This document shows positions 1,292 to 63,350 of a stretch of DNA of 64,000 bases, one piece after another; the first letter of the stretch is position 1; the number at the start of each line of letters is the position of its first letter. The stretch spans positions 1,368-65,367 of the forward strand of contig JBBIPG010000001.1 in assembly GCA_037442925.1 (NCBI GenBank), read 5' to 3'. Source of the DNA: Candidatus Fraserbacteria bacterium (GTDB lineage Bacteria; Bipolaricaulota; Bipolaricaulia; RBG-16-55-9). The translations under genes and the position numbers were made by a program. A model generated the notes under the pieces. The model worked only from the letters and a program-made list of their open reading frames with translations, ran no database searches and was not told the origin of the DNA.

Positions 1292-1324
1292 GTTGCTGGC
1301 TTTGGCATGACAGAAATGTGAAGA

Positions 1325-1351
1325 GGGCCAGCCGGATTCCCAAGCTGGCCC
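1325..1351. terminator. Terminator-like hairpin between convergent genes
   Basis: GGGCCAGC-N11-GCTGGCCC 8-bp stem. No clear U-tract on either side. Confidence 0.3.
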
Positions 1352-24405: not shown

Positions 24406-24921
24406 TTAAGCCTTCTCAAACACCAGATCGCCGTGCTTCTTGATGTACTCGATAATGCCACCCTCGTTTAAGATCTGCATCATCACCGGTGGGATGCGCC
24501 CGGCCTGAAGCTGCGTCCCCTTCGTCTTGTTGTGAATCATGCCTTGCGAGAGATCGATCTCAAGCTCATCTCCTTGGGCAATCTGATCGGTGTCCACCAC
24601 AAGAGCGGGCATTCCGATGTTGAAGCAGTTGCGATAGAAGATGCGAGCGAAGGACTTTGCCAAGACGATGGGCACGCCAGACAATTTGATCAGCCTCGCT
24701 GCATGTTCCCGAGAAGATCCCTGACCAAAATTGCGCCCACCTACAACGATATACTTCTCTTTGCTCTCAAGAGCAGCCGGAGCGAACTTGGGATCGGCGT
24801 CTTCCAAGACGTGTTTGACGAATTCATCCATCTTGTCCCGGAGATTGGCATAGCGTCCCGGTGCGATGAGATCTGTAGAAACATAGTCTCCAAACTTCCA
24901 GGCTTTGCCTCGGATGATCAT
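24406..24921 (-). CDS. leuD: 3-isopropylmalate/homoaconitate dehydratase small subunit (archaeal-type short LeuD)
   Basis: 171 aa, GDYVSTDLIAPGRY. Confidence 0.85.
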   Translation of the reverse strand: MIIRGKAWKFGDYVSTDLIAPGRYANLRDKMDEFVKHVLEDADPKFAPAALESKEKYIVVGGRNFGQGSSREHAARLIKLSGVPIVLAKSFARIFYRNCFNIGMPALVVDTDQIAQGDELEIDLSQGMIHNKTKGTQLQAGRIPPVMMQILNEGGIIEYIKKHGDLVFEKA

Positions 24922-26229
24922 GGCGTGTACGCCTCCTCTAGAGTCTGGACTTCACTCTGCCCGGTTTTCAGATAGGGCCTGGGATCAGCAATCATGCCCT
25001 CGATGGCGGTCGCTGCCGCTGTCGCAGGCGAAGCGAGATAGACGAATGAGTTGGGATTGCCCAAGCGTCCCTTGAAGTTGCGGTTCTGAGTTGCGACACA
25101 GACTTCACCATCTGACAAGAGCCCAAACTGCATGCCCGGACACGGCCCGCAAGCCGCATGGGCTACTATAGCTCCTGCCTCTTCCAACGCCTTGATGTAT
25201 CCCTTCTTGAGAGCTTGGTGATAGACCCAGCGCGAGCCAGGGTACACCAGAAAGCGCGTGCCCTTGGGTACCTGATGTCCCTTCACGATCTCTGCTGCGA
25301 CGGCAAGGTCCTCCAGTCTGCCATTCGTGCACGTTCCCAAGAAGACTTGATGGACTTTTACTCTCTTCTTAGCCACTTCGCATATGGACACCACATTGCC
25401 GGGAGTGTGCGGCTCCGAAACCATGGGTTCCAGCTTCGAGACATCAATCTCATAGATCTTCTCGTATCTGGCGCTGCGGTCCGGCTTGATCGGCTTCCAT
25501 TGGGCTTCGCGTCCATGAAGCTTCATCCAACGCTTCGTCTGCTGATCCGAAGGGAAGAGTCCGAGCTTGGCTCCACATTCTTGTGCCATGCTGGTGATTG
25601 TGAAGCGTGCATCCATAGAGAGCTTTTTCACCAAGTCCCCGCCGTATTCCATGGCTTTATAGGCAGCTCCATCTTCCCCAATGAGTTTGATAATGTGAAG
25701 AATGATGTCTTTTGCATAGACCCCGTGGGGAAGATCACCGTTCAGTTCAAAGCGAAGCGTCTCCGGCACGCGGAACCATTGCTTGCCCAACGCCATAGCT
25801 ACAGCCGTATCGGTCGAGCCCATTCCGGTGGCAAAGGCGCACATGCCAGCCGATGTGCTTGTGTGTGAATCGGCTCCCACGACTACATCTCCCGGCTTGA
25901 CGTAGCGCTCCGTGAGCAGGATGTGGCTGATCCCCTCACCCATCTCTGCCAGAATGCATCCCGTGTCTTCTGCAAACTTCCTCAGGCGGCCGTGCATATT
26001 GGCGTATTCGGGCCGTCCCGGTGGCCCCAGGTGATCGAGCACGATCATCGCGCGCTCCGGATGCTTCAAGTAATCGCGGCCCATGAGTTGTCGGATCACG
26101 TCGAAGGTGAGCGTGCCGGTGCCATCTTGCACGATGGCCATATCCACTTCACAAAGTGCAATATCACCAGCCTTCACCTCATGCCCCAATTTCATCGAAA
26201 GAATCTGCTCTGCCAGTGTGAGTCCCACA
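24918..26229 (-). CDS. leuC: 3-isopropylmalate/homoaconitate dehydratase large subunit
   Basis: Aconitase-family Cys ligands. ORF 24918..26270 trimmed to GTG (VGLTLAEQIL). Confidence 0.85.
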
Positions 26230-26370
26230 GTTGGAATCCTCCCTCTTGGTGATCGCGCTGAGTATAGCATAGAAGTACAGAATGTGCGAGTGCCTCACGC
26301 AGAGCGATGTTGCGGCCTGGAAGGCTTATCGCTATGCTGGAGTTTACCTTTCGTAGAGAGGGATGAGCAC

Positions 26371-30720: not shown

Positions 30721-31254
30721 CTATTCACGGTTGTTGGTTGCACACTCCACCAGCGCGTAGTGTTCATCGAGCCACTGCCCGATCACGTTCTCTCTCGCTC
30801 GGTGATGGGCATAGTGCATGTGAAGACACTTCACTTGGCTCCAATCTCGTAATCCTCCGATCCCGCGCTTCAAGAAGACAGAAGCCAAGCCCTTGGCTTC
30901 TATCCAGCGGCGATCACGTTCTGTCAGTTCCGCCCAGCGTTCCCGGATATAGGCCTGATGATTCTCGTGGTAACGGGCACGCAAGGATGCGTCGTCTTGG
31001 ATGAGCTTTTCGATGACTCGGATCAGACCCTGATATTCCAGCTGAGAGATCTGCTGGATCAAAGCTGGGCAACTGAGCCAGAAGAGCGTCGGGAACGGCC
31101 TCTCATCGAGGAGCGGGTAGACGCGGATCACTTGAGGATGTCTCGCCGGACAGTATCTCTCAATGGTGCGCACGCCCCTTGGGAAACGCCCAAGCTGTCC
31201 TGTCAAGATCTCAATCTCGCGTCCCGTGACCATAGCCGAAGTGAGAATAGACAA
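30721..31254 (-). CDS. Conserved hypothetical protein (possibly DUF501-like)
   Basis: 177 aa, no confident family. Abuts rbfA stop. Confidence 0.45.
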   Translation of the reverse strand: MSILTSAMVTGREIEILTGQLGRFPRGVRTIERYCPARHPQVIRVYPLLDERPFPTLFWLSCPALIQQISQLEYQGLIRVIEKLIQDDASLRARYHENHQAYIRERWAELTERDRRWIEAKGLASVFLKRGIGGLRDWSQVKCLHMHYAHHRARENVIGQWLDEHYALVECATNNRE

Positions 31255-45589: not shown

Positions 45590-47064
45590 ATGCTCAAGCG
45601 TGGTCTCAGGCTTGCAGCGATACTCGGTTTCTTGTCGGTGTTGATTCTATCGGGGAGTTTTCCTGGAGTGGGGGTAATCGCAAGCGCGCAGCAAGATATT
45701 TCAGCGATCGTCGAGCGTGTCAGGCCGGCGGTCGTCGAAATCGTGACGGATAAGGGGCAAGGGAGCGGATTTATCATCACATCGGATGGGGCAGTTCTCA
45801 CTGCTTACCACGTCGTGCGGGGAGCCAGCAGCATCGAAGCTCGGTTGCCGAATGGCTCAAGCTACAGAGCAACTGTAGGAAGTATGATGAGACGTATGAC
45901 CGTGGGGGCAGCGATCTGGCCTTGCTGAGGGTAAGCGCCAGCGGCCTTCCCACAGTGAGCTTAGGCGACTCGGATACCATCAGGATTGGGCACTCCATCA
46001 TCGTCATGGGCTATCCCTTGGGTATGGGTTTTCTTGTTGGCACCGGAAACATTAGTGGCAGTGTGGATTTTGGCGGTGGGCGCACAGTCTTTGTAATTGA
46101 TGCTGCCGTCAACCCAGGCAACAGCGGCGGACCGCTCCTCAATGATGAAGGTGATGTTATTGGAGTCGTCTTCGGCAGGGCCGATGTCCCCGGGATCAGG
46201 GTGGAGGGAATCAACTTCGCTACCCCAATAAACACTGCCAAGCGTGAGTTGAGACTAAACGTACCCACTGTGCACACCCTCACCCTCGGCCACAACAGCA
46301 CAGTCCTGTCAGTAGTGTTCAGCCCCGACGGACGGCTGCTCGCCTCCGGCTCCGTGTTCTGGGACAGTAGCACGTGGAGAGGAGAGATCAAGCTGTGGGA
46401 TGTAGCCACGGGTCAGGAGATCCGCACCATCAGCCCCAGCGGTAGCTGCACTATCGAGTGGGGGATCGCGTTCAGCCCTAACGGACAATTTCTCGCCTCC
46501 GGCTCCGGGGAAGGAGTGGTCTATTTGTGGGAGGTGGCCACGGGCCGGGAGGTCCGCACCTTAACTACTGGCAACACCTTCTCAGTCTGTTGGGTGGCCT
46601 TCAGCCCGGACGGGCGGTTACTCGCCGCCGCCACCGCCACTGACGACATCAAACTGTGGGAGGTGGCCACGGGTCAGGAGATCCGCACTCTCACTGGCCA
46701 CACCTACGGTGTCCATCAAGTAGCCTTCAGTCCTGACGGAAAGTTCCTCGCTTCCGGTGCTGGTGACTATACTATCAAGCTGTGGGAGGTGACCACGGGC
46801 AAAGAGGTGCACACACTCTCCGGTCACACTGGGTCGGTGTACTCCGTAGCCTTCAGCCCAGATGGGAAGCAGCTCGCCTCAGGTTCCTGGGACGAGACAA
46901 TCAAGCTGTGGGCTGTGGCCACAGGACAAGAAGTTTGCACCCTCACAGGGCACACCGACCAGGTCAATTCGGTAGCCTACAGTCCCGATGGGAGGCTCCT
47001 TGCCTCCGCTGGCTATATGGACCATACGATTAAGCTCTGGAACATCACTGCACTGTCAGGGTGA
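45590..47064 (+). pseudogene. Secreted trypsin-like (S1/HtrA-type) serine protease fused to WD40 repeats, interrupted by a -1 frameshift near 45880
   Basis: ORF 45590..45928 carries signal peptide and the catalytic His (LTAYHVV). The next frame (45922..47064) continues with DLALLRV (Asp) and GNSGGPL (Ser), then 6-7 WD repeats. The two frames join at ...RATVG|KYDETYD. Confidence 0.7.
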
Positions 47065-52339: not shown

Positions 52340-55063
52340 CTAGCTTGTCGTTGAGAAGCGCGGCTCGAGCATAAGATAGACCTGAGGCTGTGCTGTGCCG
52401 ATGCCGTAAGCAAAACCCACTCGAAGCGAGCCAGTCATGAGCCCGTATCCCAGCACGACCTGGAGTTGGAGTTCTGCTCCCAAAGCGACCCGACTTTGAT
52501 CGAGTTCTAGAGTCGATCCGACCGTTCCGGCATCCACAAATAGGCTGCCGCGAAGATCGTCAAGAAATAGGGGTGAAATGGAGTCCCCGCAGCACGCCCA
52601 CTCGATGGCCCATACAGGGAATCGATATTCTGCGGTCATCGAAACAAGCTCGGATCCTACGGAGATGTTCGCAAAGCCGCGCAGCGGATACTTCCCGCTG
52701 ACACCTCCCAGACGGAACTCCTCGCGATCGCTCCAGGCGGCACCGGCTCGGAAGAGAAACTCGTGTGGGCCGACGGGATTCTCAAACGGAAGCTGAAACT
52801 CTTCACGCCATTCCAGAGTCAACCGACGCGCCAGTCCCTGCAAGGGCCATGTCAGACTGCCCTGGATCGCCAGTGAGGAGCGGCGCTGGAACAGGTCGAA
52901 CCCTTGCGCATCCATGAGTCGTTCCGTGAGAGATACCTCGGCCGCGCCGCGCTCTTGCCCTAGAGCCAGTGTCAAGACACGCTCACGGTTCAAGCTCTCT
53001 CCCCAGGGGAATTCCAGTGCGAACTCCTGACGCTCTTGTACAGGGCTCCCCTGCACACGGAAGTGAAGGGCGGGAAAGAACTGGTTATTGATGTAGCCAA
53101 ACTCGTAGAAAAACTCGAACGTGTCGGTACTCAATCCCACGTTGAGGTCGTAGCGATGTCGATGAAGCGGATCTTCGTTTTGCGTGAAGAACCCCACTTC
53201 CGTCATTCCGACAAAGGGCACCCAGAAGGTCGGGATCAGTGCAGGCACTGGATCGTAGATCACCGGTCGCAGCTTTTGAACTTCCTTAGCAGAGAGTGCA
53301 CTGGCCATCTGAGGCGTCTTCACGCTGGCTGAGTTGCTCGAAGGCGGCTTGAGACTCCAACGGGCGGGGTCATACTCCGCACGCTGTAGGCTGAATCCGT
53401 TTTCCGTGTAGCCTACGATGAGGAGGTGCTGTCCATCGGACGAGACGGCAGGGTCAAAACTGCCGCTGAGGGAACGGGTGACACGGAAGAGCTGGCGATC
53501 TCCCAGGCGAAGAGCGTAGACATCAAAAATGCCCTCACGGTTGGACGAGAAGAGAATGAAACGGCCATCGGGTGAGAAGACGGGATCGAAGTCGAGAGCT
53601 GGGTCTTGGGTCAGAGGAATCGGTTCCCCTCCTTGGCTATTCATGAGATATATATCTTGCCCCTGCTCACTCTTCCAGAGGGAGAGCGCGATGAGTTTTC
53701 CATCCGGAGAGATGCTCATGGAGTGGACGCGTTGGTCCCTATCGAATTCCGTGAGTACTTGACGGCTCTTAGTAAGAAGATCGAAGACGACCAACGCACT
53801 TGTTCCTGCGGTGCCGTTGCGAGCGAAGAGCAAACGGCGGCCATCTAAGAAGGATTCTACCTGGTAGACTCTCTCGCCATACGTGAGACGCGCCTCGCGC
53901 CGACTTTCAAGATCATACAGGTAGAGATCATAGACGCGAGAGCCATGGGTGATGCCGAGCTTAGGATAAGTCAGTGTGATCGCATCCAGCCAGGCTGGCG
54001 GACCACATTCGCAAGCCAGCAGTGGCTGATCGTCTGTCCCGTTGGGCCGGATCCAGCGTAAGCCGGAGCTACGCTGTGGATCTTGGTGATAGTAGGCAAT
54101 GGCATCACCCAACGGGGATTCCGCGGGCCAGACACTCCAGAAATCCAGGGAGCCTAGAGGGGTTCGCGCGGTTACCCCGCCTTGGCTCTGGATCTCGTCT
54201 TGAAGCCGGGCCGAGCGCTCCTCTGCCCAGAACCGAAAGTCCTGATAGGTTTTTTCAGAGGACTGACCCGTCGCGATACTCAATGGACCTGAGAGGAAAG
54301 AACCCAGGAGATTGGTCGCATAGGCTCGGCTGATCTCTTGAATCGCTTCATGACCGTATGTTTCATCCAGATACGCCAGCAGCACGGACCCAACGAAGTA
54401 GGCTTGTACGTCAGCGGAAGGCCAAACCTTCTTCGTGTACGGGGAACTCAATTGCGCCAGAGTAGGCAAGCGCTCTGATTCAGCCATGGCCCGGAGGCTC
54501 ATCTCGGCAAGACCCGGATCGCGATGAGTCCGGTAGATGAGACCCTCTCGCCACCAGAGCGGCTTCACGAGACCGGGGGCAACGAGACTCCCGAAGATCG
54601 CCCGCAGATCCGCGGTGATTCCTTCCACTCGCGTCGCGTCAACGATACGTCCGTATTCAGAAAAGATGATCTCCTCAAGCCACGATTCCCTCGGGGAGCT
54701 CCACAGTTCAGTGGACCACCCATACGGGTGATCGATCACCATGACGTTGTGGGGAAAGATGCTCCGGACGACTGTTGTGACATCGCTACGATCCGTCAGC
54801 ACGATATAGGTCTTTGCCGGCTCGGAATACTGGAGCTTCTGAGCCCAGTACTCATGAGCTCTTTCCGCAAGGAGAGCGGCTTCCTTCGCTAATTCGAAGA
54901 GATCATCCGGGAAGAGGATCTCAAAGTGCTCGGTCTTAAGAGCCTGCCAGTTGCGAGCCGAAGCCTGCGTTCCCCAGGGCAAAGGAGTAGGTGCTCCGTC
55001 GAGAGTGATGAACCATATTGCGACAGCTGCGAGTACCCAGATCAACCACGACCTCACGTACAC
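52340..55063 (-). CDS. Large envelope protein: N-terminal domain, TolB-like PD40 beta-propeller repeats, C-terminal Omp85-family beta-barrel
   Basis: 907 aa. N-terminal signal/TM. PD40-type repeats (SPDGKLIAL..., FSPDGRFILFSS...). C-terminal YPLRGF ... LFVDAGTVG motifs typical of Omp85/BamA barrels. Confidence 0.55.
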   Translation of the reverse strand: MYVRSWLIWVLAAVAIWFITLDGAPTPLPWGTQASARNWQALKTEHFEILFPDDLFELAKEAALLAERAHEYWAQKLQYSEPAKTYIVLTDRSDVTTVVRSIFPHNVMVIDHPYGWSTELWSSPRESWLEEIIFSEYGRIVDATRVEGITADLRAIFGSLVAPGLVKPLWWREGLIYRTHRDPGLAEMSLRAMAESERLPTLAQLSSPYTKKVWPSADVQAYFVGSVLLAYLDETYGHEAIQEISRAYATNLLGSFLSGPLSIATGQSSEKTYQDFRFWAEERSARLQDEIQSQGGVTARTPLGSLDFWSVWPAESPLGDAIAYYHQDPQRSSGLRWIRPNGTDDQPLLACECGPPAWLDAITLTYPKLGITHGSRVYDLYLYDLESRREARLTYGERVYQVESFLDGRRLLFARNGTAGTSALVVFDLLTKSRQVLTEFDRDQRVHSMSISPDGKLIALSLWKSEQGQDIYLMNSQGGEPIPLTQDPALDFDPVFSPDGRFILFSSNREGIFDVYALRLGDRQLFRVTRSLSGSFDPAVSSDGQHLLIVGYTENGFSLQRAEYDPARWSLKPPSSNSASVKTPQMASALSAKEVQKLRPVIYDPVPALIPTFWVPFVGMTEVGFFTQNEDPLHRHRYDLNVGLSTDTFEFFYEFGYINNQFFPALHFRVQGSPVQERQEFALEFPWGESLNRERVLTLALGQERGAAEVSLTERLMDAQGFDLFQRRSSLAIQGSLTWPLQGLARRLTLEWREEFQLPFENPVGPHEFLFRAGAAWSDREEFRLGGVSGKYPLRGFANISVGSELVSMTAEYRFPVWAIEWACCGDSISPLFLDDLRGSLFVDAGTVGSTLELDQSRVALGAELQLQVVLGYGLMTGSLRVGFAYGIGTAQPQVYLMLEPRFSTTS

Positions 55064-55094: not shown

Positions 55095-56144
55095 TCAGGG
55101 AAGCACCCCAGCCTCCACGGTCAATACGGGAACGCCGTCGCGGGTGACGGCCAGACTGATATTCACATTTAGGTCCGGGAAGCTAAGCGAAGTCCCCCAG
55201 CCGAAGAGCACTTCGTTCGACTCTTCTCCATCGCCCAATACCATGCCACCCTCGAAGAAGACCGACGAGAGCAGGCGGAGTCGCACGGGAATCCATCCGA
55301 GCCTCTCTCCCAGAATGTCCCTGAGATCCAACTGGAAGATCTGAGCTGAAAGCACTTCAAAGCCCTGTTCGAGCGAGAACAAGAAGAATCGATGGCCCGC
55401 AAACGAAGCGGGATAGCTGCGAAGCCCCAGATTGAAGCGAAAGCCTGGCAGGTCGGCGGGGTTATCTAACTCTCCCAGGCGAAACTCCAACGTGGTCTCA
55501 TCGACCCACAATCTGGTCGAGCTAAAGAAAGTCTGAAAGGAGCTTTCGAGGTCGGTCAGAGGCTGACCGAACAGAAACTCTCCGCGAGTCTCCAGAGTGA
55601 TGCCGAGCGGCAGTGGCCAGTGAAGGAAACCGCTCAGGTGAAAGTATCGCACATCCGGACCTTCCATCTCGCCTTCCCCTGGCCAGAGGCGCCCCAAGAA
55701 TCCCGTTCCTTGGAGCTGGCTTTGCTGGAGAACTGCGCCAAGAAGTCCCTCTCCTTCACTCCCCAGCAGTCGATTGAGTGCCAGCAGGTCCAGCGACGCA
55801 TGAATACCCTGTTCGCCTTGACGACCGAATACCAAGCTGCTCGGCCAGTCTCCATAGGAGATCCTCAGAGCGTTCTGGTATTGCAGGCCCGTTCGGAAGC
55901 GTCCCATCTGGCTCAACACGCCATAGGCTCCGCCTGCTTCCAGTTCCAACCCCAAGCCTTCCAGAGTTAATGCAAAATCCAGTCCCAGCAGCAGGCCGTC
56001 GCGATGGCTCTCCGCGATCACAGGGCGCAGATGGGGAATCGCACCGATGGGTTGCTGCTCCTGGGACCAACCACTAAACCCGCTCAAAGCGACGAGCCCC
56101 AGAGTGAGCCATGCCCAACTGTATCTCCATCCTCGATCACTCAT
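55095..56144 (-). CDS. Secreted hypothetical protein, possibly outer-membrane beta-barrel
   Basis: 349 aa, signal peptide, alternating hydrophobic pattern. Start overlaps ABC-F stop. Confidence 0.45.
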   Translation of the reverse strand: MSDRGWRYSWAWLTLGLVALSGFSGWSQEQQPIGAIPHLRPVIAESHRDGLLLGLDFALTLEGLGLELEAGGAYGVLSQMGRFRTGLQYQNALRISYGDWPSSLVFGRQGEQGIHASLDLLALNRLLGSEGEGLLGAVLQQSQLQGTGFLGRLWPGEGEMEGPDVRYFHLSGFLHWPLPLGITLETRGEFLFGQPLTDLESSFQTFFSSTRLWVDETTLEFRLGELDNPADLPGFRFNLGLRSYPASFAGHRFFLFSLEQGFEVLSAQIFQLDLRDILGERLGWIPVRLRLLSSVFFEGGMVLGDGEESNEVLFGWGTSLSFPDLNVNISLAVTRDGVPVLTVEAGVLP

Positions 56145-58095
56145 GTTGTGATGATGGAATCTGCCTCTGGAGTTCTTCCATAATAGCCGTCCATTCTCGA
56201 TACATCACATCCAAGCGCGTTTTCGCCTCTTGATACTGCTTGTTGAGCTCACGCAGGCGTTCGTGATCTTGCGCGTAGCTAGCCTCTTGCAGTGCCTCTT
56301 CGATCCGAGCGATCGTGCCTTCCCATTCCGTCACGGCGTGAGACAGTCCCGCTTCTTGTGTCTCCAGCTTCTTGCGTTCCCTTTGTCTTACTTTCTCATC
56401 GTGGCCTGCCTTTGGTGTTTGAGCCTGACGTCTTGGAGCTTTCTCTTGTTGTTTGTGCTCTTGCGCTCCTCGTTTCGTCCCCTCACCGGTACGTCTGCGG
56501 AGGTAATCTTCGTACCTTCCGCGATAGATGTAGCACTCTCCGTCACGGATCTCCCAGACTTGGGTGGCGAATCTCTGAATGAGGTACCGATCGTGGGATA
56601 CAAACAGAACCGTTCCTTCGTAGTTATGCAGTGCCTGTTCCAGCACTTCTCGTGAACTTATGTCCAAGTGGTTGGTCGGCTCATCCAGCACGAGAAAATT
56701 CCCGTCCAATTGCGCCAAGCGAGCCAGCGCGAGGCGACTGCGCTCACCGCCCGACAACTCCCCAATACGCTTATACACGTCGTCTTCGGAGAAGAGGAAA
56801 CGCCCGAGGAAGTCGCGCGCTTCACTGATGGTCTGATGCTTCCCGGCCATGAGCGCATCCAAGACCGTCTGATCACGAGCGAGCTCTTCCCACTGGCTTT
56901 GGCGGAAGTACGAAAGAATGGCGTTATGTCCCATTTGGAGTCTGCCTGCCAAAGGCGTAAGTTCTCCGACCAATGCTTTCAGGAAACTGGTCTTGCCACA
57001 ACCGTTGGGCCCGATGAGAGCCACGCGCTCGCCCCGCTCCAGTATCGCTTGTGGGATGCGAAAGAGCACCTGGGGCTGGCCATTCGCACCCGGATAACCA
57101 ATGAGGAGATCTTCTACTTCGAGAATGCGCTGACCACTGGGTTCTCCTAACGGAATGGAGAAATGAATGGATTTCGTGACCGGTGGAGCCTCTACGAGCT
57201 CTAGTCGTTCGAGTTGCTTGCGCCGCGCTTTGGCTTGCGCCTCTCGGAACCGTCCACCGGCAATGTTCTTCCGGATGAATTCCTCTGATTTCTTGATGAA
57301 TTCCTGTTGTTGATCGTAGCGTTTCTGCTGATGCCCTACCCGCTCGGTCTTGATCGCGCGATATTTTGAGTAATTGCCTGGATATTCTGTAAGTCGACCC
57401 ACTTCCAGCTCCCAGATTCGATCGGCCAGTTTGTCGATCATGAATCGATCGTGGGAGGAGAGTATGAAGCCGCCCTTCCAGTTTGCGAGATGCTCCTCGA
57501 GCCATTCGAGGGCGTCGAAATCCAGGTGATTCGTGGGCTCATCCAAGAGCAGGATTTCCGGTTCCTCGAGTAAGAGTTTGGCGAGCGCCGCACGAGCTCG
57601 CTCCCCTCCACTCAAATGGGCAACGGGCTTGTTCTCATCTTCTAGAGAAAAGCCCAGTCCCGCCAGCACTTGATGAACCTCACTCTCGTACTCATAGCCT
57701 CCTGCAAGGCGGTACGATTCCAAGAGCTCATCATATCGGTGCAGCAGTTCTTCGCTGTCCGACTCTGCTGCCAGTTTCGCCTCTAACGTTCGAAGTTCGT
57801 GCTCTTTTCGGAGCAGCTCTTGCTTCGCGGCCCGTACGGCTTCATAGAGTGTGTCGGCCCCATGCAACTGGGGCTCCTGAGCGAGATAACCGATCTTTAC
57901 GGAGCTGGCCCTTTTCACCCGACCGTCGTTCGGCTCCTCGATCCCGGTGAGCACCTTGAGCAGAGTTGATTTCCCAGAACCGTTGGGACCAATGAGTGCA
58001 ATGCGGTCGCCTCGGGCCACTTGCAGCGTGACACCCTTAAGAACGGTCTCCGCTCCAAACCGCTTTGTCAGTCCTTCCGCGCTGATGGCTGCCAT
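56137..58095 (-). CDS. ABC-F family ATPase (two tandem ABC domains, no TM)
   Basis: 652 aa. Two Walker A (GPNGSGKST, GPNGCGKTS), two signature motifs, charged linker. Confidence 0.88.
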   Translation of the reverse strand: MAAISAEGLTKRFGAETVLKGVTLQVARGDRIALIGPNGSGKSTLLKVLTGIEEPNDGRVKRASSVKIGYLAQEPQLHGADTLYEAVRAAKQELLRKEHELRTLEAKLAAESDSEELLHRYDELLESYRLAGGYEYESEVHQVLAGLGFSLEDENKPVAHLSGGERARAALAKLLLEEPEILLLDEPTNHLDFDALEWLEEHLANWKGGFILSSHDRFMIDKLADRIWELEVGRLTEYPGNYSKYRAIKTERVGHQQKRYDQQQEFIKKSEEFIRKNIAGGRFREAQAKARRKQLERLELVEAPPVTKSIHFSIPLGEPSGQRILEVEDLLIGYPGANGQPQVLFRIPQAILERGERVALIGPNGCGKTSFLKALVGELTPLAGRLQMGHNAILSYFRQSQWEELARDQTVLDALMAGKHQTISEARDFLGRFLFSEDDVYKRIGELSGGERSRLALARLAQLDGNFLVLDEPTNHLDISSREVLEQALHNYEGTVLFVSHDRYLIQRFATQVWEIRDGECYIYRGRYEDYLRRRTGEGTKRGAQEHKQQEKAPRRQAQTPKAGHDEKVRQRERKKLETQEAGLSHAVTEWEGTIARIEEALQEASYAQDHERLRELNKQYQEAKTRLDVMYREWTAIMEELQRQIPSSQHE

Positions 58096-58256
58096 GATGA
58101 ATCATTTCACAGATGAGCTGGGACTAGCTGCAACCGGATTGTATGGGAATTTTGACGGATCGGCAACAGCGTTACCCTTCCGGGAGCGATGTCCACCCTG
58201 AGAAAGCCCGTCGGACTTGCCGCGGAATTGAGCCGCACCCTATACTGAGATTACCC

Positions 58257-58319
58257 ATGAAGATCACTCACATTCATGCGCGCGAGATTCTCGATTCTCG
58301 AGGGGAAGATCCGCGATGA
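58257..58319 (+). other. 20-codon upstream ORF identical in sequence to an enolase N-terminus (eno remnant), stop overlapping the ftsB ATG
   Basis: atg aag atc act cac att cat gcg cgc gag att ctc gat tct cga ggg ... tga translates MKITHIHAREILDSRGEDPR*. Enolase N-termini read ..I.AREILDSRGNPTVEV. ATGA overlap with the ftsB start. Confidence 0.5.
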
Positions 58320-58588
58320 ATCTTCGGATCGTGCCCATCGCCATTCTCATTGGGGTCGTGGCCCTCGGTGTGCTCTTCTTCCTGCGAGGACAGGCGATTG
58401 TGAGTCTCCAAAGAGAACTTCACAAGCTTCAAATCCAACAAGAGGAACTGATTGAGGAGAATGGGTACTTGAGGGGACTCCTCGCTCGCAAGGACGATCT
58501 GGGCTATCTCGAGTATCTGGCTCGTCGTGAGCTGGGGTTGATCAAGCCGGGCGAAGAGAAGTATATTCTCATCGAAGGTGGGCCATGA
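58316..58588 (+). CDS. ftsB: Septum formation initiator (FtsB/DivIC family)
   Basis: 90 aa. N-terminal TM plus coiled coil (LQRELHKLQIQQEELIEENGYLRGLL). Confidence 0.7.
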   Translation: MNLRIVPIAILIGVVALGVLFFLRGQAIVSLQRELHKLQIQQEELIEENGYLRGLLARKDDLGYLEYLARRELGLIKPGEEKYILIEGGP

Positions 58589-61500
58589 GTTTCGTCCACT
58601 TGCACGTGCACTCAGAGTATAGCTTGCTGGATGCTACCTGCCGAATTGATCAGCTGTTGGACCGAGCTGTAGAGTTCCAGATGCCTGCGATAGCCCTTAC
58701 GGATCATGGCGTGCTCTGCGGGGCGATCGAGTTTTATCTTAAGGCCCGCGAAAGAGGCATTCAGCCGATCATCGGCTGCGAGCTCTATGTGGCTCCCGGC
58801 AGCCGCTTCGAGAAGCGGCAGACAGAAAAGTATTATCATCTCACCGTGCTCGCTCGCAACGCCACAGGGTATAGAAACCTCTTGAAGCTGACGAGTCTCG
58901 GCTACTTGGAAGGCTTCTACTATCGCCCGCGCGTGGACAAAGAGCTGCTGCGCCAATACAGCGACGGCCTGCTGGCACTTTCCGGGTGTCTTAAGAGCGA
59001 GATCAACACGCTTCTTCTTCGGGGGGATTTAGAGGCTGCTCGTGCTGCGGCGCGGGAGTTTCAAGAGATCTTTGGGCATGAATATTTCTTCATGGAACTC
59101 CAAGACCATGGTTTGGAGGACCAACGGCGGCTCAGACCCCAACTGATGGAACTGGCTCGACGAATCGGTGCTCGCCTCGTCGCCAGCAACGACGTGCATT
59201 TCCTTACCCGTGCGGATCACGAAGCTCATGAAGTCTTCATCAATATTGGCTCCAGCAAGTCCAACGAGCGGCGCAGCTATGGTCACGAATGCTATCTCAA
59301 GTCCCCCGAAGAGATGGCTCAGATCTTCCCAGACATGCCGGAGGCCCTTGAAACTACGCTGTACATTGCTGAACTATGCCAGCTCGAACTCGATCTCAGT
59401 CATCGGCATCTGCCCTACTTTGAGCTGCCCCCTTCGGAGACGAGCGCGGATCGCTACCTCGAGAAGCTGGCGTGGGAAGGTGTCCAGCAACGTTACCCGG
59501 AACTCACGGCGGAGATCGAAGAACGGCTGCGTCATGAGCTTGAGATCATCGAGCACATGGGCTTTGCCTCGTATTTCTTGATCGTTCAAGATTTCATTCG
59601 CTTTGCCAAGTCTCGCGGGATTTCGGTGGGACCGGGAAGAGGCTCTGCAGCAGGGAGCCTGGTCTGCTATGCGTTGGGCATCACCGATGTAGATCCACTT
59701 CGGTATGGACTGATCTTCGAGCGCTTTTTGAACCCCGATCGCATTGAGCTTCCGGATATCGACATCGATTTCTGCATGCGCCGCCGCGACGAAGTGATCC
59801 GATATGTAGAAGAGAAGTACGGCACGGATCACGTGGCCCAGATTGTCACATTCGATACGATGGCAGCGCGAAGCGCCGTACGCGATGTGGCGCGGGCTAT
59901 GGGCATCTCGCATGCGGATGCCGACAGAATTGCCAAACTCATCCCCTTCGGGGCTACCCTCGAACAAGCCTTGTCGGCCTCGAGAGAACTTAGGGAGCTC
60001 GGCGAGCGCGATGAGAGGATTCAGCGCTTGTTGGAAGTGGCGGGTAGACTCGAAGGGCTCGTCCGCAACCCCGCCACTCATGCCGCGGGCGTGGTCATCG
60101 CACCCAACGAGATCACGCAATATACAGCACTCATGCGTTTGAGCGATGGCGCTGTTGTCACTCAGTACGACATGATCTCTGTAGGTGCCATCGGCATGCT
60201 CAAGATGGACTTCCTGGGCTTACGGAATCTCACCGTGCTCGAAGATACGCTCAAGTTCATTCGCCAACACATGGGCCAGAAGCTGGAGCTCCGCGATATT
60301 CCGCTGGAAGACCCCAAGACCTATAGCCTGCTGCAACAGGGCCGCACCGCAGGAGTGTTCCAGCTGGAGAGCAGCGGCATTCGCGAGATGCTCAAGCGTC
60401 TGGAACCCACAGAGTTCAAAGACGTGATCGCCACGCTCGCGCTCTATCGCCCTGGGCCTTTAGAGAGCGGTATGGCCAACGACTACATCGAGCGCAAGCA
60501 CGGGCGCGAGAAGATCTCCTACCCTCACCCGAAACTCGAAGGAATTCTTCGGGACACGTATGGGTTGCCCATCTATCAGGATCAAGTGCTGATGATGGCT
60601 CGCGTGATGGCGGGCTTTTCCCTGGCTGAGGCAGACACGCTGCGGAAGGCCATCGGCAAGAAGAACAGGGCACTCATGGAAAAGATGAGGCAGAAGTTCA
60701 TTGAGGGATGCGTGAAGAACGAGATCGCCGCCCAGAAGGCCGAATCCCTCTTTACAGATATTGAGAAATTCGCGCGCTACGGCTTTGTGAAAGCCCACTC
60801 CACAGCGTATGCTCTCATCTCATACTGGACGGCCTATCTCAAAGCGAACTACCCCACATTCTACCTGGCAGCACTCTTGACGAGTGTGGCGGGCAACTCG
60901 GCCCGTGTGCGAGAGTACATCAACGAATGCCGCGAGCTGGGCATTCAGCTGCTCCCACCGGATATCAATGAGAGCCAGGCGGATTTCACACCGCGGGAGG
61001 GCAAGACCGGCAACGCCATTCGCTTTGGACTGGGCGCAATCAAGAACGTTGGACACGGCCCCATCGAGGCGATATTGAAGGCCCGTCAAGCGCGTCCGTT
61101 TGAGTCTTTCTTCGACTTCTGCCGGCGTGTCGAGGCCGATAAGCTCAACCGCGAGGTGCTCGAAAGCCTCGTCAAGGCGGGAGCCTTCTGCCAAATGGGT
61201 ACGCGCAAATATCTCTTGGAGCTTATTCCGATGGGTATGGAATTGGCCGGACGCGCCCACCGAGAGCGCCGCAGTGGCCAAGCAGCACTCTTTGGTGTGG
61301 GCGAGATCTCTCCTCTAGGAAACGCCGCCCCACGAGCGACGGTGAATGAAGAATTCTCCAAGTGGGAACTGCTCAGTTTCGAGAAGGAACTCTTGGGACT
61401 CTATGTGAGCGGGCATCCCTTAGAGGATTATGAGGACCGATTGGCTCTCTATCGCACGTGCGCGCTCAGTGCCATGGCAGAAGCTACAGAAGGTCAGGAG

Positions 61501-62034
61501 CTACAGCTGGGTGGCCGCGTGGAGAACGTGAAGATCATTCATACACAAGGCGGCAAGGATATGGCCTTTGTCACGTTGGAGGATGTCAGCGGAGAAGCGG
61601 AAGCCGTCGTATTCCCTGCGCAATATGAGCGATATCGTTCCCTGCTCAAGCGAGATCACCTGCTCTTCATCCAAGGACAACTGGGAAGTCGCAATGGGCG
61701 ACGGAGCCTGATTGCTGAGGAGATCCTGTCTTTGGAGGAACTCGACAAGAAGAGTGAACTTCACGTGTTGCTGCCTGTTGCGGCCGTGGAAGAACCCACT
61801 TTGGAAAGACTCCGCGAGACGTTGAGGAAACACGCAGGCCAATCGAAGGTTTATCTTCATATCATCGAAGGCGAGGCTCATGAGACAGTCGAAGCCGGAG
61901 GGAATCTGCATGTTCAACTCTCCCGTTCGCTTCTGGAAGAGTTGCGAACGATGCTGGGCTCAGATCGGGTCAAGATCCAGATCCGGATGCATGGCCCCGC
62001 GATGAAAGACGCACAGATGGCATGGGCAACGTGA
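58585..62034 (+). CDS. dnaE: DNA polymerase III alpha subunit
   Basis: 1149 aa. PHP domain HLHVHSEYSLLD. Pol III alpha fingers/palm motifs. Confidence 0.95.
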   Translation: MSFVHLHVHSEYSLLDATCRIDQLLDRAVEFQMPAIALTDHGVLCGAIEFYLKARERGIQPIIGCELYVAPGSRFEKRQTEKYYHLTVLARNATGYRNLLKLTSLGYLEGFYYRPRVDKELLRQYSDGLLALSGCLKSEINTLLLRGDLEAARAAAREFQEIFGHEYFFMELQDHGLEDQRRLRPQLMELARRIGARLVASNDVHFLTRADHEAHEVFINIGSSKSNERRSYGHECYLKSPEEMAQIFPDMPEALETTLYIAELCQLELDLSHRHLPYFELPPSETSADRYLEKLAWEGVQQRYPELTAEIEERLRHELEIIEHMGFASYFLIVQDFIRFAKSRGISVGPGRGSAAGSLVCYALGITDVDPLRYGLIFERFLNPDRIELPDIDIDFCMRRRDEVIRYVEEKYGTDHVAQIVTFDTMAARSAVRDVARAMGISHADADRIAKLIPFGATLEQALSASRELRELGERDERIQRLLEVAGRLEGLVRNPATHAAGVVIAPNEITQYTALMRLSDGAVVTQYDMISVGAIGMLKMDFLGLRNLTVLEDTLKFIRQHMGQKLELRDIPLEDPKTYSLLQQGRTAGVFQLESSGIREMLKRLEPTEFKDVIATLALYRPGPLESGMANDYIERKHGREKISYPHPKLEGILRDTYGLPIYQDQVLMMARVMAGFSLAEADTLRKAIGKKNRALMEKMRQKFIEGCVKNEIAAQKAESLFTDIEKFARYGFVKAHSTAYALISYWTAYLKANYPTFYLAALLTSVAGNSARVREYINECRELGIQLLPPDINESQADFTPREGKTGNAIRFGLGAIKNVGHGPIEAILKARQARPFESFFDFCRRVEADKLNREVLESLVKAGAFCQMGTRKYLLELIPMGMELAGRAHRERRSGQAALFGVGEISPLGNAAPRATVNEEFSKWELLSFEKELLGLYVSGHPLEDYEDRLALYRTCALSAMAEATEGQELQLGGRVENVKIIHTQGGKDMAFVTLEDVSGEAEAVVFPAQYERYRSLLKRDHLLFIQGQLGSRNGRRSLIAEEILSLEELDKKSELHVLLPVAAVEEPTLERLRETLRKHAGQSKVYLHIIEGEAHETVEAGGNLHVQLSRSLLEELRTMLGSDRVKIQIRMHGPAMKDAQMAWAT

Positions 62035-63350
62035 ACAGGCGTGTGCTGCGGCAAGTGGCCAAATGGCTCTACCCCGGCATGGGTGTGAAGCGCTGGGCAC
62101 TGGTCATTGGACTCTCGGCGCTCTTGCTGATCGTGGGTCTGATAGGACTGATCGGCAGGGAGAATCTGCGGATGATTTCTGGACTCTTCTCCGGCTCCGG
62201 CCTGGCGCTCTATGCTCTCATTGCCGGATTAAGCATCGTCGGTCTGGGTGGAGTCATCTTGGGAGTCAATCAACTCGTGCGCTCGATCATACGGGGCATC
62301 TCGCCGGAGTTTGAAGGAAGAGCCTCGGAAGTGATCTACAGCAAGCGGCTGTTGAGTCGAGGTCCTCACATTGTAGCCGTCGGCGGAGGCACGGGCCTCT
62401 CGACCTTGCTCCGTGGCGTAAAGCACTTGACGTCAAATATCACGGCGATCGTCACGGTCATGGATGACGGAGGGAGTTCGGGAAGACTCAGGCGGGAGAT
62501 GAACATCCTGCCCCCAGGCGACATACGTAACTGCCTGATCGCACTGGCGGAAGACGAATCGAAGATGGCCCAGCTCTTTCAGCATCGCTTTCGCACAGGC
62601 GGGGGAAGCGCTCTCAACGGCCACTCTCTGGGGAACTTGGTGTTGGCTGGCCTACAGGAGATGACAGGCTCCTTCGATCGTGCCATCGAAGAACTCAGCT
62701 CACTGCTTAACGTGCGTGGACAAGTGCTGCCAGCCACCCTGGAAGACGTTCAACTCGTGGCGGAGCTGGCCGATGGTTCGCTGGCCCGAGGAGAGTTCGA
62801 CATAGTCCAAACGAAGAAGGGCATCGTTCGGATGTCGCTGTCACAACCCCGAGTTCGCCCTTACCCCAAGGTGCTTGCAGCGATCCGTTCGGCCGATCTC
62901 ATCATTCTGGGTCCAGGGAGCCTGTTTACGAGCCTCATCCCCAATTTGCTTGTGGATGAGGTCGCCCGCGAGATCGAGTTGTCTCGAGCCATCAAATTCC
63001 ATATCGCGAATCTCATGACCCAGCCCGGCGAGACCGAGGGGTTCACATTGAAGGACCATTTGCGGGTCCTCAACGACTACATCGACCTGACCACGTTCGA
63101 CTGTGTGGTGGTGAATCGAGAAGCGATTCCCCAAGACTTGCAAGAGCGCTATCGCCTGGAGAAAGCCTCGCCTGTATGGAACGATCTGGATGCTGTAAAC
63201 GAGTATGCCCTTGAGGTCGTCGAGAGCGACTTGCTGGATATTGTAGAGCTTGAGGGAAAGCTCACCGTGAAGCACCACCCTCAGAAGTTGTCGCAAGTCA
63301 TTGCGCGCTGTGCTAAGCAGGCATTCGCGGAGCGGCTAAGAAGATTCTAA
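62022..63350 (+). CDS. yvcK: Gluconeogenesis factor YvcK/UPF0052 (CofD-like) with predicted N-terminal membrane extension
   Basis: IVAVGGGTGLSTLLRGVK...VMDDGGSSGRLRRE core. First about 100 residues hydrophobic. True start may be internal. Confidence 0.75.
   Translation: MGNVNRRVLRQVAKWLYPGMGVKRWALVIGLSALLLIVGLIGLIGRENLRMISGLFSGSGLALYALIAGLSIVGLGGVILGVNQLVRSIIRGISPEFEGRASEVIYSKRLLSRGPHIVAVGGGTGLSTLLRGVKHLTSNITAIVTVMDDGGSSGRLRREMNILPPGDIRNCLIALAEDESKMAQLFQHRFRTGGGSALNGHSLGNLVLAGLQEMTGSFDRAIEELSSLLNVRGQVLPATLEDVQLVAELADGSLARGEFDIVQTKKGIVRMSLSQPRVRPYPKVLAAIRSADLIILGPGSLFTSLIPNLLVDEVAREIELSRAIKFHIANLMTQPGETEGFTLKDHLRVLNDYIDLTTFDCVVVNREAIPQDLQERYRLEKASPVWNDLDAVNEYALEVVESDLLDIVELEGKLTVKHHPQKLSQVIARCAKQAFAERLRRF

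What the first reader, a model, noticed from the sequence alone, without database searches (positions are those of the whole stretch)
58257..58319. Enolase N-terminal relic acting as an upstream ORF overlapping the ftsB start
Sixteen codons upstream of ftsB encode MKITHIHAREILDSRG, the near-universal enolase N-terminus. After this the frame diverges (EDPR) and stops at a TGA overlapping the ftsB ATG (cgATGAat). Only these 20 codons of enolase remain.

eno-ftsB(divIC) is a conserved gene pair in many Gram-positive lineages. This looks like an eno deletion or translocation that left the first 20 codons as a leader peptide, now positioned for termination-reinitiation coupling into ftsB. It also implies the functional eno lies elsewhere, or is the source of a duplication.
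Basis: seen in the sequence. Interest (0 to 1): 0.55.

Follow-up and report, generated by a model that had tools for sequence, protein, structure and literature searches.

The report
In-frame deletion scar of enolase gene
The 20-codon mini-gene in front of ftsB is what remains after an old ~1.2-kb in-frame deletion removed almost all of the enolase gene but kept its promoter, start codon, last four codons and stop/start overlap, so the essential downstream genes ftsB and dnaE are still expressed; it is a tidy natural example of a known kind of event, not a new mechanism.

Summary
Window 58257..58319 encodes MKITHIHAREILDSRGEDPR*, and its TGA overlaps the ATG of a DivIC/FtsB gene (58316..58588), which in turn overlaps dnaE.

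Nine or more related Bipolaricaulota/Fraserbacteria loci carry a full 421-426-aa eno at exactly this position, in the block ABC-F(-)/eno/ftsB/dnaE/cofD. In the closest of them, eno ends ...W-E-x-x-R* on the same ATGA overlap. The "EDPR*" tail is therefore the original last four eno codons, not a diverged frame. The relic is an in-frame internal deletion of about 404 codons.

The same junction occurs in four other assemblies, with up to 9% coding divergence, so the deletion is real, old and fixed in a sub-clade. A conserved promoter (TTGCCG-18-TATACT) ends 10 nt before the ATG (leaderless-type), and an SD-like GAGGGGAAG lies before the ftsB start. Both were retained.

Evidence that the mini-ORF itself is selected is mixed. 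In the most diverged relative it has drifted at the neutral rate (ATG to GTG, enolase motif lost). Its open frame there could be chance (about 12%). No RNA structure or Rfam family was found.

No second enolase was found, but whole genomes could not be searched. Verdict: a gene-deletion scar that preserves operon expression. Moderate to low interest.

The parts
58217..58246 (+). Promoter-like element of the former eno gene, TTGCCG-18 nt-TATACT. It now drives the relic-ftsB-dnaE-cofD unit. The -10 box ends 10 nt before the relic ATG, a leaderless-type arrangement.
   Evidence: Found by the consensus scan. TTGyCs-N17/18-TATACT is present upstream of eno or the relic in all 11 loci compared, although the rest of the intergenic region is diverged. 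No transcription start site has been mapped.
58257..58304 (+). eno codons 1-16 (MKITHIHAREILDSRG), the 5' remnant of the deleted enolase gene.
   Evidence: It is orthologous to the start of full-length eno in L026 (MKITRVHAREILDSRG), L024 and L029 (MKIAEI[LH]AREILDSRG) at the same syntenic position.
58302..58307 (+). Deletion junction (GGG|GAA). Gly16 (GGN) of eno is joined to the codons that follow the penultimate Trp (TGG GAA) of the ancestral 3' end. There is 2-3 nt of G microhomology, and about 404 codons (about 1.2 kb) were removed in frame.
   Evidence: Inferred by comparing the relic with the 5' ends (CGn GGn) and 3' ends (TGG GAR/AAG/AGG ... TGA) of intact eno in L024, L026, L029 and L031. 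L023 has the same junction architecture, DS[L]G-E-G-A-R*.
58305..58319 (+). The last four eno codons plus stop (E-D-P-R-TGA). The TGA overlaps the ftsB ATG (ATGA).
   Evidence: Intact relatives end ...W-E-L-P-R* (L026)...W-E-R-F-R* (L024)...W-K-G-R-L* (L029) and ...W-R-P-L* (L031), all with the same 4-nt ATGA overlap onto ftsB.
58300..58308 (+). Shine-Dalgarno-like purine run GAGGGGAAG, 8-12 nt upstream of the ftsB ATG.
   Evidence: Read from the sequence. GGGGGAAG is retained in all four deleted loci, including the diverged L023. The equivalent TGGGAG, TGGAAGGG and TGGAGG lie in the eno 3' ends of intact relatives. The organism uses GGAGG-type SD sites at about half of its genes.
58316..58588 (+). 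ftsB/divIC (90 aa), the first intact gene of the unit.
   Evidence: Pfam PF04977 DivIC, E=5e-9. Homologues are 55-98% identical in related loci.
58585..62034 (+). dnaE (DNA polymerase III alpha, 1149 aa). Its start overlaps the ftsB stop (ATGA).
   Evidence: Pfam PHP, DNA_pol3_alpha, finger, HHH_6 and OB domains. The synteny holds in all related loci.
62022..63350 (+). cofD-family gene. It overlaps the dnaE end by 13 nt and is the last conserved member of the eno-ftsB-dnaE-cofD block.
   Evidence: Pfam PF01933 CofD, E=6e-104. It holds the same position in L023-L030, L114, L115 and L118.
56137..58095 (-). Divergently transcribed ABC-F ATPase. It is the upstream boundary of the locus and a synteny anchor.
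   Evidence: Pfam ABC_tran x2 plus ABC_tran_Xtn. It has the same position and orientation next to full-length eno in L002, L024-L029 and L113. A promoter-like TTGCCG-17-TACAAT lies on the minus strand at 58166..58138.

Best explanation
The 63-nt ORF is the scar of a single in-frame internal deletion of about 1.2 kb that removed codons 17 to about 420 of the ancestral enolase gene. It occurred in a sub-clade of Fraserbacteria-like Bipolaricaulota.

Shown:
- The ancestral locus was ABC-F(-) / eno / ftsB / dnaE / cofD, with the eno stop overlapping the ftsB start (ATGA).
- The deletion kept the eno promoter, the eno start codon in its leaderless-type context, the first 16 codons, the last 4 codons, the SD-like purine run inside the eno 3' end, and the ATGA overlap.
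- The same junction is inherited by at least two species-level lineages.

Inferred:
- ftsB and dnaE are essential and appear to depend on the eno promoter and on translation signals embedded in the eno 3' end. Only deletions with both end-points inside eno could survive. An in-frame deletion also lets ribosomes that start at the eno ATG terminate exactly where they always did, on the ftsB start. An out-of-frame deletion would make them run out of frame into ftsB or create a fusion protein.
- The mini-ORF is probably still translated in the window organism and delivers ribosomes to the ftsB start (termination-reinitiation). This contribution is likely facultative, because ftsB has its own SD-like element.
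- The 20-residue peptide itself has no function.
For: Synteny: full-length eno (421-426 aa) lies between the same ABC-F and ftsB-dnaE genes in L002, L024/25, L026-28, L029/30, L031, L113, L115-117 and L118-120.

Junction: the relic tail E-D-P-R-TGA matches the W-E-x-x-R* C-termini and the ATGA overlap of the closest intact eno genes. The deletion is in frame.

Real and fixed: the relic is identical in L001 and L114 (NCBI MAG GCA_037444325.1). It has one substitution in L022. It shows the same architecture, though diverged, in L023. Coding divergence from the window is 0.5%, 5.6% and 9.1% respectively.

Retained signals: TTGyCs-N17/18-TATACT is conserved in all 11 loci, and the -10 box ends 8-10 nt before the ATG in the closest lineages. 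The SD-like GGGGAAG is retained in all four deleted loci. Other genes in the window have the same TATAAT-N8-ATG arrangement.

Mild constraint: between the window and L022 the relic has 1 change in 59 nt, against 13.5% at four-fold sites of ftsB plus dnaE (Fisher p=0.006).

Laboratory analogue: Keio-type deletions are deliberately built as short in-frame scar ORFs, keeping the downstream RBS, to preserve translational coupling (PMC8547470).
Against: - No transcription or translation data exist. The promoter, the leaderless start and the coupling are all inferred from sequence.
- In L023 the relic has diverged at the neutral rate (25% against 26% at four-fold sites). Its start is GTG, a 10-nt insertion separates it from the -10 box, and the enolase motif is gone. 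Yet ftsB is intact, which argues that mini-ORF translation is dispensable.
- The still-open, in-frame ORF in L023 has about a 12% chance of arising without selection.
- The window-L022 conservation is not significant against the local benchmark. ftsB's own four-fold sites show 3/44 changes and the upstream intergenic region shows 15/161.
- In-frame status alone has a prior of 1 in 3.
- In E. coli, scar ORFs of 34 codons were often too short to restore coupling (PMC8547470).
- No RNA structure that would make ftsB initiation depend on upstream translation was detected (z-scores -0.6 to +2.0).
Confidence: 0.62

Rival explanations
1. Inert scar. The deletion history is the same, but the mini-ORF plays no role at all. 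FtsB is initiated independently at its own SD-like site on a transcript from the old eno promoter. The relic ORF is decaying neutrally and is open only because too little time has passed.
For: In L023 the relic diverges at the neutral rate with two indels, ATG to GTG and a 10-nt insertion upstream, while ftsB stays intact. The purine run GGGGAAG before the ftsB ATG is the best-conserved part of the relic. The organism uses SD sites widely. No occluding RNA structure was found. The open frame in L023 is compatible with chance (about 0.12). Short scar ORFs couple poorly in E. coli (PMC8547470).
Against: The window, L114 and L022 keep a perfect ATG in the ancestral leaderless-type context. They show 1 change in 59 nt against 13.5% neutral divergence (p=0.006). 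The deletion is in frame and keeps the exact ancestral termination site. L023 also remains in frame after a net 3-nt indel.
Confidence: 0.3
2. Selected regulatory leader peptide. The relic has been co-opted as a uORF whose peptide or codon content senses a signal, by stalling or attenuation, and tunes ftsB-dnaE expression.
For: Only the position of the ORF immediately upstream of ftsB, its overlap with the ftsB start, and the low divergence between the window and L022.
Against: The peptide sequence is not conserved in L023: VKITRMHAWAQDSLGEGAR against MKITHIHAREILDSRGEDPR. There is no significant secondary structure or alternative hairpin. There is no terminator-like site between the ORF and ftsB and no Rfam match. 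The sequence is fully explained as inherited eno codons.
Confidence: 0.04
3. Assembly artefact or rare population variant. The deletion would be a mis-assembly or a minority allele in one sample, not a feature of the organism.
For: The sequences are metagenome-derived and no read-level data were available.
Against: The same junction is found in five separate assemblies from at least four data sets: the window; L001 from SRR11582170; L022 from ERR15087765; L023 from ERR14373513; and L114 from GCA_037444325.1. These differ from one another by 0.5-9% in flanking genes.
Confidence: 0.01
4. Duplicated 5' fragment. The relic would be a copy of the start of an eno gene located elsewhere, inserted upstream of ftsB.
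For: None beyond the sequence similarity to enolase N-termini. That similarity is generic: 81 unrelated metagenomic enolases share the peptide pattern.
Against: The relic sits exactly where the full eno sits in all relatives, behind the same conserved promoter. It also carries the native eno 3' end and the ATGA overlap. No enolase with this N-terminus from this lineage was found elsewhere.
Confidence: 0.02

Closest known systems
Engineered in-frame 'scar' deletions (Keio-collection design in E. coli)
   Same: These keep the start codon, a few terminal codons and the native stop of the deleted gene. A short in-frame ORF terminates at the original site, and the downstream gene's ribosome-binding site, which lies inside the 3' end of the deleted gene, is preserved. 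The stated purpose is to avoid polar effects and keep translational coupling (PMC8547470).
   Different: Here the event is natural, has no FRT scar and leaves 20 codons rather than 34. In E. coli even 34-codon scars often failed to restore normal levels of the downstream protein, so the efficiency of coupling here is uncertain.
Conserved eno-divIC(ftsB) operons, e.g. eno-divIC-Rv1025(DUF501)-ppx2 in Actinobacteria
   Same: Enolase lies immediately upstream of the FtsB/DivIC gene in one transcription unit (bioRxiv 10.64898/2026.08.31.746906). The same adjacency holds in every intact Bipolaricaulota relative examined here.
   Different: In this phylum the downstream partners are dnaE and cofD, not DUF501-ppx2. 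A DUF501 gene exists in the window but lies 27 kb away, at 30721..31254(-). In the window clade eno has been deleted.
Translational coupling at overlapping stop/start codons (ATGA / TGATG), as in the E. coli trp operon (Oppenheim & Yanofsky 1980, cited in PMC8547470; otherwise from my own knowledge)
   Same: There is a four-base ATGA overlap between the upstream ORF's stop and the downstream start. The same overlap recurs at ftsB-dnaE and at several other gene pairs in the window.
   Different: The upstream 'gene' is only 20 codons and non-functional. Dependence of ftsB initiation on upstream translation is untested, and ftsB has an SD-like site of its own.
Gene remnants and pseudogenes left by gene loss in bacterial genomes
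   Same: This is a short, non-functional fragment of a once-functional gene at its original locus. It shows neutral decay in one descendant lineage (L023).
   Different: Most remnants are frameshifted or truncated debris. This one retains both translational boundaries of the parent gene in frame. The likely reason is that essential genes downstream depend on them.

Membership tests
Gene remnant (unitary pseudogene) produced by internal deletion | Sequence homology to the functional gene | tested here: met
   14 of 16 residues and about 77% of the nucleotides are identical to the eno start of L026. Pfam Enolase_N positions 1-15 match (E=0.046; weak only because the match is short).
Gene remnant (unitary pseudogene) produced by internal deletion | Located at the orthologous (syntenic) position of the intact gene in relatives | tested here: met
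   ABC-F(-)/eno/ftsB/dnaE/cofD is found in nine or more related lineages. The relic lies between the same ABC-F and ftsB genes.
Gene remnant (unitary pseudogene) produced by internal deletion | Loss of the parts needed for function | tested here: met
   Only 20 codons remain of 421-426. No Enolase_C domain or catalytic motif occurs anywhere in the 64-kb window.
Gene remnant (unitary pseudogene) produced by internal deletion | Evolves without constraint on the encoded protein | tested here: inconclusive
   The rate is neutral against L023 (25% against 26% at four-fold sites). Between the window and L022 there is only 1 change in 59 nt against 13.5% (p=0.006), and this is not significant against local ftsB four-fold sites, 3/44.
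Translationally coupled gene pair (termination-reinitiation) | Stop codon of the upstream ORF overlaps or abuts the downstream start codon | tested here: met
   The ATGA lies at 58316-58319. It is the same in L022, L114 and L023, and in the intact eno-ftsB junctions of L024, L026, L029, L031 and L115.
Translationally coupled gene pair (termination-reinitiation) | Upstream ORF is actually translated | not testable with these tools
   There is only indirect support: the ancestral ATG and the conserved promoter, with the -10 box ending 10 nt upstream. Ribosome profiling or reporter assays are needed.
Translationally coupled gene pair (termination-reinitiation) | Downstream initiation depends on upstream translation (no independent SD, or SD/start masked by structure) | tested here: not met
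   An SD-like GAGGGGAAG lies 8-12 nt upstream of the ftsB ATG and is conserved. Predicted folding is no stronger than for shuffled sequence, and the small hairpin around the AUG is not conserved in L023.
Regulatory leader peptide / attenuator uORF | Conserved peptide or codon content, with alternative RNA structures or a terminator | tested here: not met
   The peptide is scrambled in L023. There is no significant structure, no terminator between the ORF and ftsB and no Rfam hit.
Enolase (phosphopyruvate hydratase; Pfam PF03952 + PF00113) | N-terminal capping domain and C-terminal TIM-barrel with catalytic residues | tested here: not met
   Only residues 1-16 and the last 4 remain.
Leaderless (or near-leaderless) mRNA start | -10 promoter element within about 10 nt of the start codon, ATG start, no SD | tested here: met
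   TATACT ends 10 nt before the ATG in the window and 8-9 nt before it in L002, L024, L026 and L031. No SD is present. The transcription start itself has not been mapped and cannot be tested here.

The most novel reading that the evidence does not exclude
The whole relic-bearing sub-clade, at least two species-level lineages about 9% apart, may have no enolase at all. It would then live with lower glycolysis and gluconeogenesis disconnected, in a phylum where the pathway is otherwise complete. In addition or instead, the mini-ORF may be actively maintained in the window/L022 lineage as a ribosome-delivery device for the essential ftsB gene. That would make it a natural case of a pseudogene remnant exapted as a coupling uORF.
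Probability: 0.25. Interest if true: 0.55.

Novelty: new member of a known kind. Interest (0 to 1): 0.3.

Why it matters
This is a clean natural counterpart of the 'non-polar in-frame deletion' that geneticists engineer on purpose. It shows how the need to keep essential downstream genes expressed (ftsB, dnaE) limits which gene-loss events can survive in an operon with embedded, overlapping translation signals.

It also flags a Bipolaricaulota/Fraserbacteria sub-clade that has lost the phylum's conserved enolase copy. If no replacement exists, that would be a notable metabolic gap, because a cultured member of the phylum has complete glycolysis (bioRxiv 10.1101/2025.11.21.689855).

For annotation, it is a reminder that a perfect 16-residue family signature can be a scar rather than a gene start.

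Tried and rejected
1. Full-length eno in the window. Motif scans of all six frames and Pfam annotation of about 50 ORFs found none, and no other glycolytic gene either.
2. Relocated native eno. A protein search with the closest intact Eno (L026) gave only syntenic orthologues at 73% identity or less. None carried the relic N-terminus. Three further candidates (P0026, P0079, P0084) all turned out to be eno-ftsB-dnaE loci of other lineages.
3. JGI metagenome scan for close FtsB relatives: nothing found.
4. Metagenome scan for the relic's N-terminal peptide as a degenerate DNA pattern. It gave 81 hits, all from unrelated high-GC soil or gut enolases with different upstream DNA.
5. RNA structure that could enforce coupling: not better than shuffled controls and not conserved.
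6. Known RNA families in the gap: none.
7. Selection on the open frame in L023. A simulation gives about 12% by chance, so this is not evidence of selection.
8. A first four-fold-site benchmark was contaminated by an indel in dnaE. It was redone on aligned codons.
The relic-bearing MAGs therefore could not be searched for eno afterwards.

Full report
**Observation**

Window 58257..58319 (+) encodes MKITHIHAREILDSRGEDPR*. Its TGA (58317-58319) overlaps the ATG (58316) of a 90-aa ORF. That ORF is a DivIC/FtsB-family protein (PF04977, E=5e-9). Its stop in turn overlaps the start of dnaE (58585..62034) in another ATGA. A cofD-family gene follows, and a divergent ABC-F ATPase lies upstream (56137..58095, minus strand). 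The 64-kb window contains no full-length enolase and no other glycolytic gene. The description is therefore accurate.

**What it is**

Searching with the DnaE N-terminus found a Candidatus Bipolaricaulia MAG (L002, 68% DnaE identity). It has the same gene order, but with a complete 421-aa eno between ABC-F and ftsB.

FtsB homologues and their contigs (34/36, 48, 49) extend this. L024/25, L026-28, L029/30, L031, L113 (Candidatus Fraserbacteria RBG_16_55_9), L115-117 and L118-120 all carry eno-ftsB-dnaE(-cofD). The block is therefore conserved across the phylum.

Only the window and its closest relatives lack eno and have a ~220-nt gap instead. These relatives are L001 (identical), L114 (NCBI MAG GCA_037444325.1, 0.5% coding divergence), L022 (5.6%) and L023 (9.1%). 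Five assemblies from at least four data sets share the junction. It is neither an assembly artefact nor a one-off variant. It is an old deletion fixed in a sub-clade.

**Anatomy of the deletion**

The closest intact eno genes start MKIT/A..(H/L)AREILDSRG. They end ...W-E-L-P-R* (L026)...W-E-R-F-R* (L024)...W-K-G-R-L* (L029) and ...W-R-P-L* (L031), and each stop overlaps the ftsB ATG as ATGA.

The window's tail, GAA GAT CCG CGA TGA (E-D-P-R-*), fits this C-terminal pattern. The relic is therefore eno codons 1-16 fused in frame to the last four codons. About 404 codons (about 1.2 kb) were removed. The junction lies in a short G-run shared by Gly16 (GGN) and the penultimate Trp (TGG). This microhomology is an inference from relatives.

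L023 shows the same architecture (…DSLG-E-G-A-R*), so the event is shared by descent. The stop/start overlap is ancestral, not newly created.

**Retained expression signals**

A promoter-like TTGCCG-18-TATACT (58217-58246) has counterparts (TTGyCs-N17/18-TATACT) upstream of eno or the relic in all 11 loci, within otherwise diverged intergenic DNA. In the closest lineages the -10 box ends only 8-10 nt before the ATG and there is no Shine-Dalgarno sequence. This is a leaderless-type arrangement, also seen at two other genes in the window (39390+, 33121-).

The TGG-GAR codons at the eno 3' end form a purine-rich, SD-like element 8-10 nt before the ftsB ATG. The relic keeps this as GAGGGGAAG (58300-58308), and it is the best-conserved part of the relic in L023. 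The organism uses GGAGG-type SD sites at roughly half of its genes and has several ATGA overlaps.

**How it most likely works**

Shown: an in-frame deletion preserved the promoter, the start codon, the termination site and the ftsB ribosome-binding region.

Inferred: ftsB and dnaE are essential and sit behind eno. Only deletions confined to the interior of eno would survive. Of the three possible frames, only the native one ends translation on the ftsB start. One alternative frame runs to 58455, inside ftsB (ORF 58276..58455). The other would fuse the peptide to FtsB.

In the window organism the mini-ORF is probably translated and hands ribosomes to ftsB. This role is likely facultative.

**Tests of selection on the mini-ORF**

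The results are mixed.

- Between the window and L022 the relic has 1 change in 59 nt, against 13.5% at four-fold degenerate sites of ftsB plus dnaE (p=0.006). The local benchmark is also low, however: ftsB four-fold sites show 3/44 and the upstream intergenic region shows 15/161.
- Against L023 the relic diverges at exactly the neutral rate (25% against 26%). It also has two indels (net -3), ATG to GTG, a 10-nt insertion between the -10 box and the start, and loss of the enolase motif (VKITRMHAWAQDSLGEGAR*).
- A simulation gives about 12% probability that such a sequence stays open, in frame and start-bearing by chance.
- Folding shows no structure beyond shuffled controls, and the small hairpin is not conserved. 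No Rfam family matches.

The peptide is not functional, a regulatory leader-peptide role is unsupported, and obligatory coupling is unlikely. In E. coli, engineered in-frame scar ORFs of 34 codons, designed for the same purpose, often fail to restore the level of the downstream protein (PMC8547470). That result also cautions against assuming efficient coupling from a 20-codon ORF.

**Where is enolase?**

A search with the closest intact Eno found only syntenic orthologues at 73% identity or less. Three candidates that I followed up were again eno-ftsB loci of other lineages.

The relic's N-terminal peptide is generic. The relic-bearing MAGs could not be searched as whole genomes.

The clade may have a non-orthologous or relocated eno, or none at all. 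This stays open. A cultured Bipolaricaulota strain has complete glycolysis including enolase (bioRxiv 10.1101/2025.11.21.689855), so true absence would be notable.

**Comparison with what is known**

The eno-divIC/ftsB adjacency is known in Actinobacteria as eno-divIC-Rv1025(DUF501)-ppx2 (bioRxiv 10.64898/2026.08.31.746906). Here it is shown for Bipolaricaulota with different downstream partners (dnaE, cofD).

The relic meets the criteria of a syntenic gene remnant. It has the geometry of a translationally coupled pair but fails the 'dependence' criterion. It fails the criteria for a regulatory leader peptide. The closest functional analogue is the engineered non-polar in-frame deletion.

**Verdict**

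It is a new, well-documented member of a known kind of event. Interest is about 0.3, and would rise to about 0.55 if the clade truly lacks enolase or if the mini-ORF proves to be selected.

Noticed in passing
window 30721..31254 (-): This is a DUF501 (PF04417) gene, E=5e-41. In Actinobacteria this family is the invariant neighbour of divIC in the eno-divIC-DUF501-ppx2 operon. Here it lies about 27 kb from ftsB, next to a PLD-domain gene.
   Followed up: no
window 20616..21872 (+): This is a Pus10-type pseudouridine synthase with an archaeal-type THUMP domain (PF21238 E=1e-66, PF22023 E=3e-23). From my own knowledge, Pus10 is typical of archaea and eukaryotes, so a bacterial copy may reflect horizontal transfer.
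   Followed up: no
window 45590..45928 and 45922..47064 (+): Two overlapping ORFs split a Trypsin_2 peptidase domain. The N-terminal part is in the first ORF. The C-terminal part, plus a WD40 beta-propeller, is in the second. This could be a frameshifted gene (pseudogene or sequencing error) or programmed frameshifting.
   Followed up: no
window 52340..55063 (-) and 55095..56144 (-): A 907-aa protein combines Tricorn-N/PD40 beta-propeller repeats with a weak Omp85-like C-terminal match. It is followed by a 349-aa ORF with no Pfam family. This pair is conserved next to ABC-F in every related locus and may form an outer-membrane module of unknown function.
   Followed up: partly
window 39390 (+) and 33121 (-) gene starts: TATAAT-like boxes end 8 nt before the ATG of an NFACT-family gene and of a PLD-domain gene, with no SD. 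This suggests that leaderless mRNAs are used repeatedly in this organism alongside strong GGAGG sites.
   Followed up: partly
window 58538..58567 (+), inside ftsB: A promoter-like TTGATC-18-TATATT ends 17 nt before the dnaE ATG. It may be an internal promoter that would make dnaE partly independent of the eno promoter.
   Followed up: no
L023 about 1307..1331: A 10-nt insertion (TATACTcaactgaactGGGATTACCC) lies between the conserved -10 box and the relic start, together with ATG to GTG. This would turn a leaderless-type start into a leadered one with no obvious SD, which is consistent with the mini-ORF having lost translation in that lineage.
   Followed up: partly
L115 and L118 (eno upstream regions): In more distant Bipolaricaulota the same TATACT box lies 26-36 nt before the eno ATG, with a clear SD (GGGAGAGGG / GGGAAGGAA). 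The leaderless-type arrangement therefore appears to be a derived feature of the Fraserbacteria-like group.
   Followed up: no
L076 606..652 (+): A high-GC soil contig has an enolase start encoding exactly MKITHIHAREILDSRG (43 of 48 nt identical to the relic), but its ORF stops after 124 codons. It is an unrelated lineage and the stop is probably a frameshift error. It shows that this N-terminal peptide is not lineage-specific.
   Followed up: partly
window 24406..24921 (-) and about 24921..26294 (-): An aconitase/IPM-isomerase small-subunit gene is followed on the same strand by a 458-codon open frame that is probably the large subunit. My crude gene picker instead chose an overlapping plus-strand ORF with no Pfam hit (25158..25868). 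Annotation here needs care.
   Followed up: no
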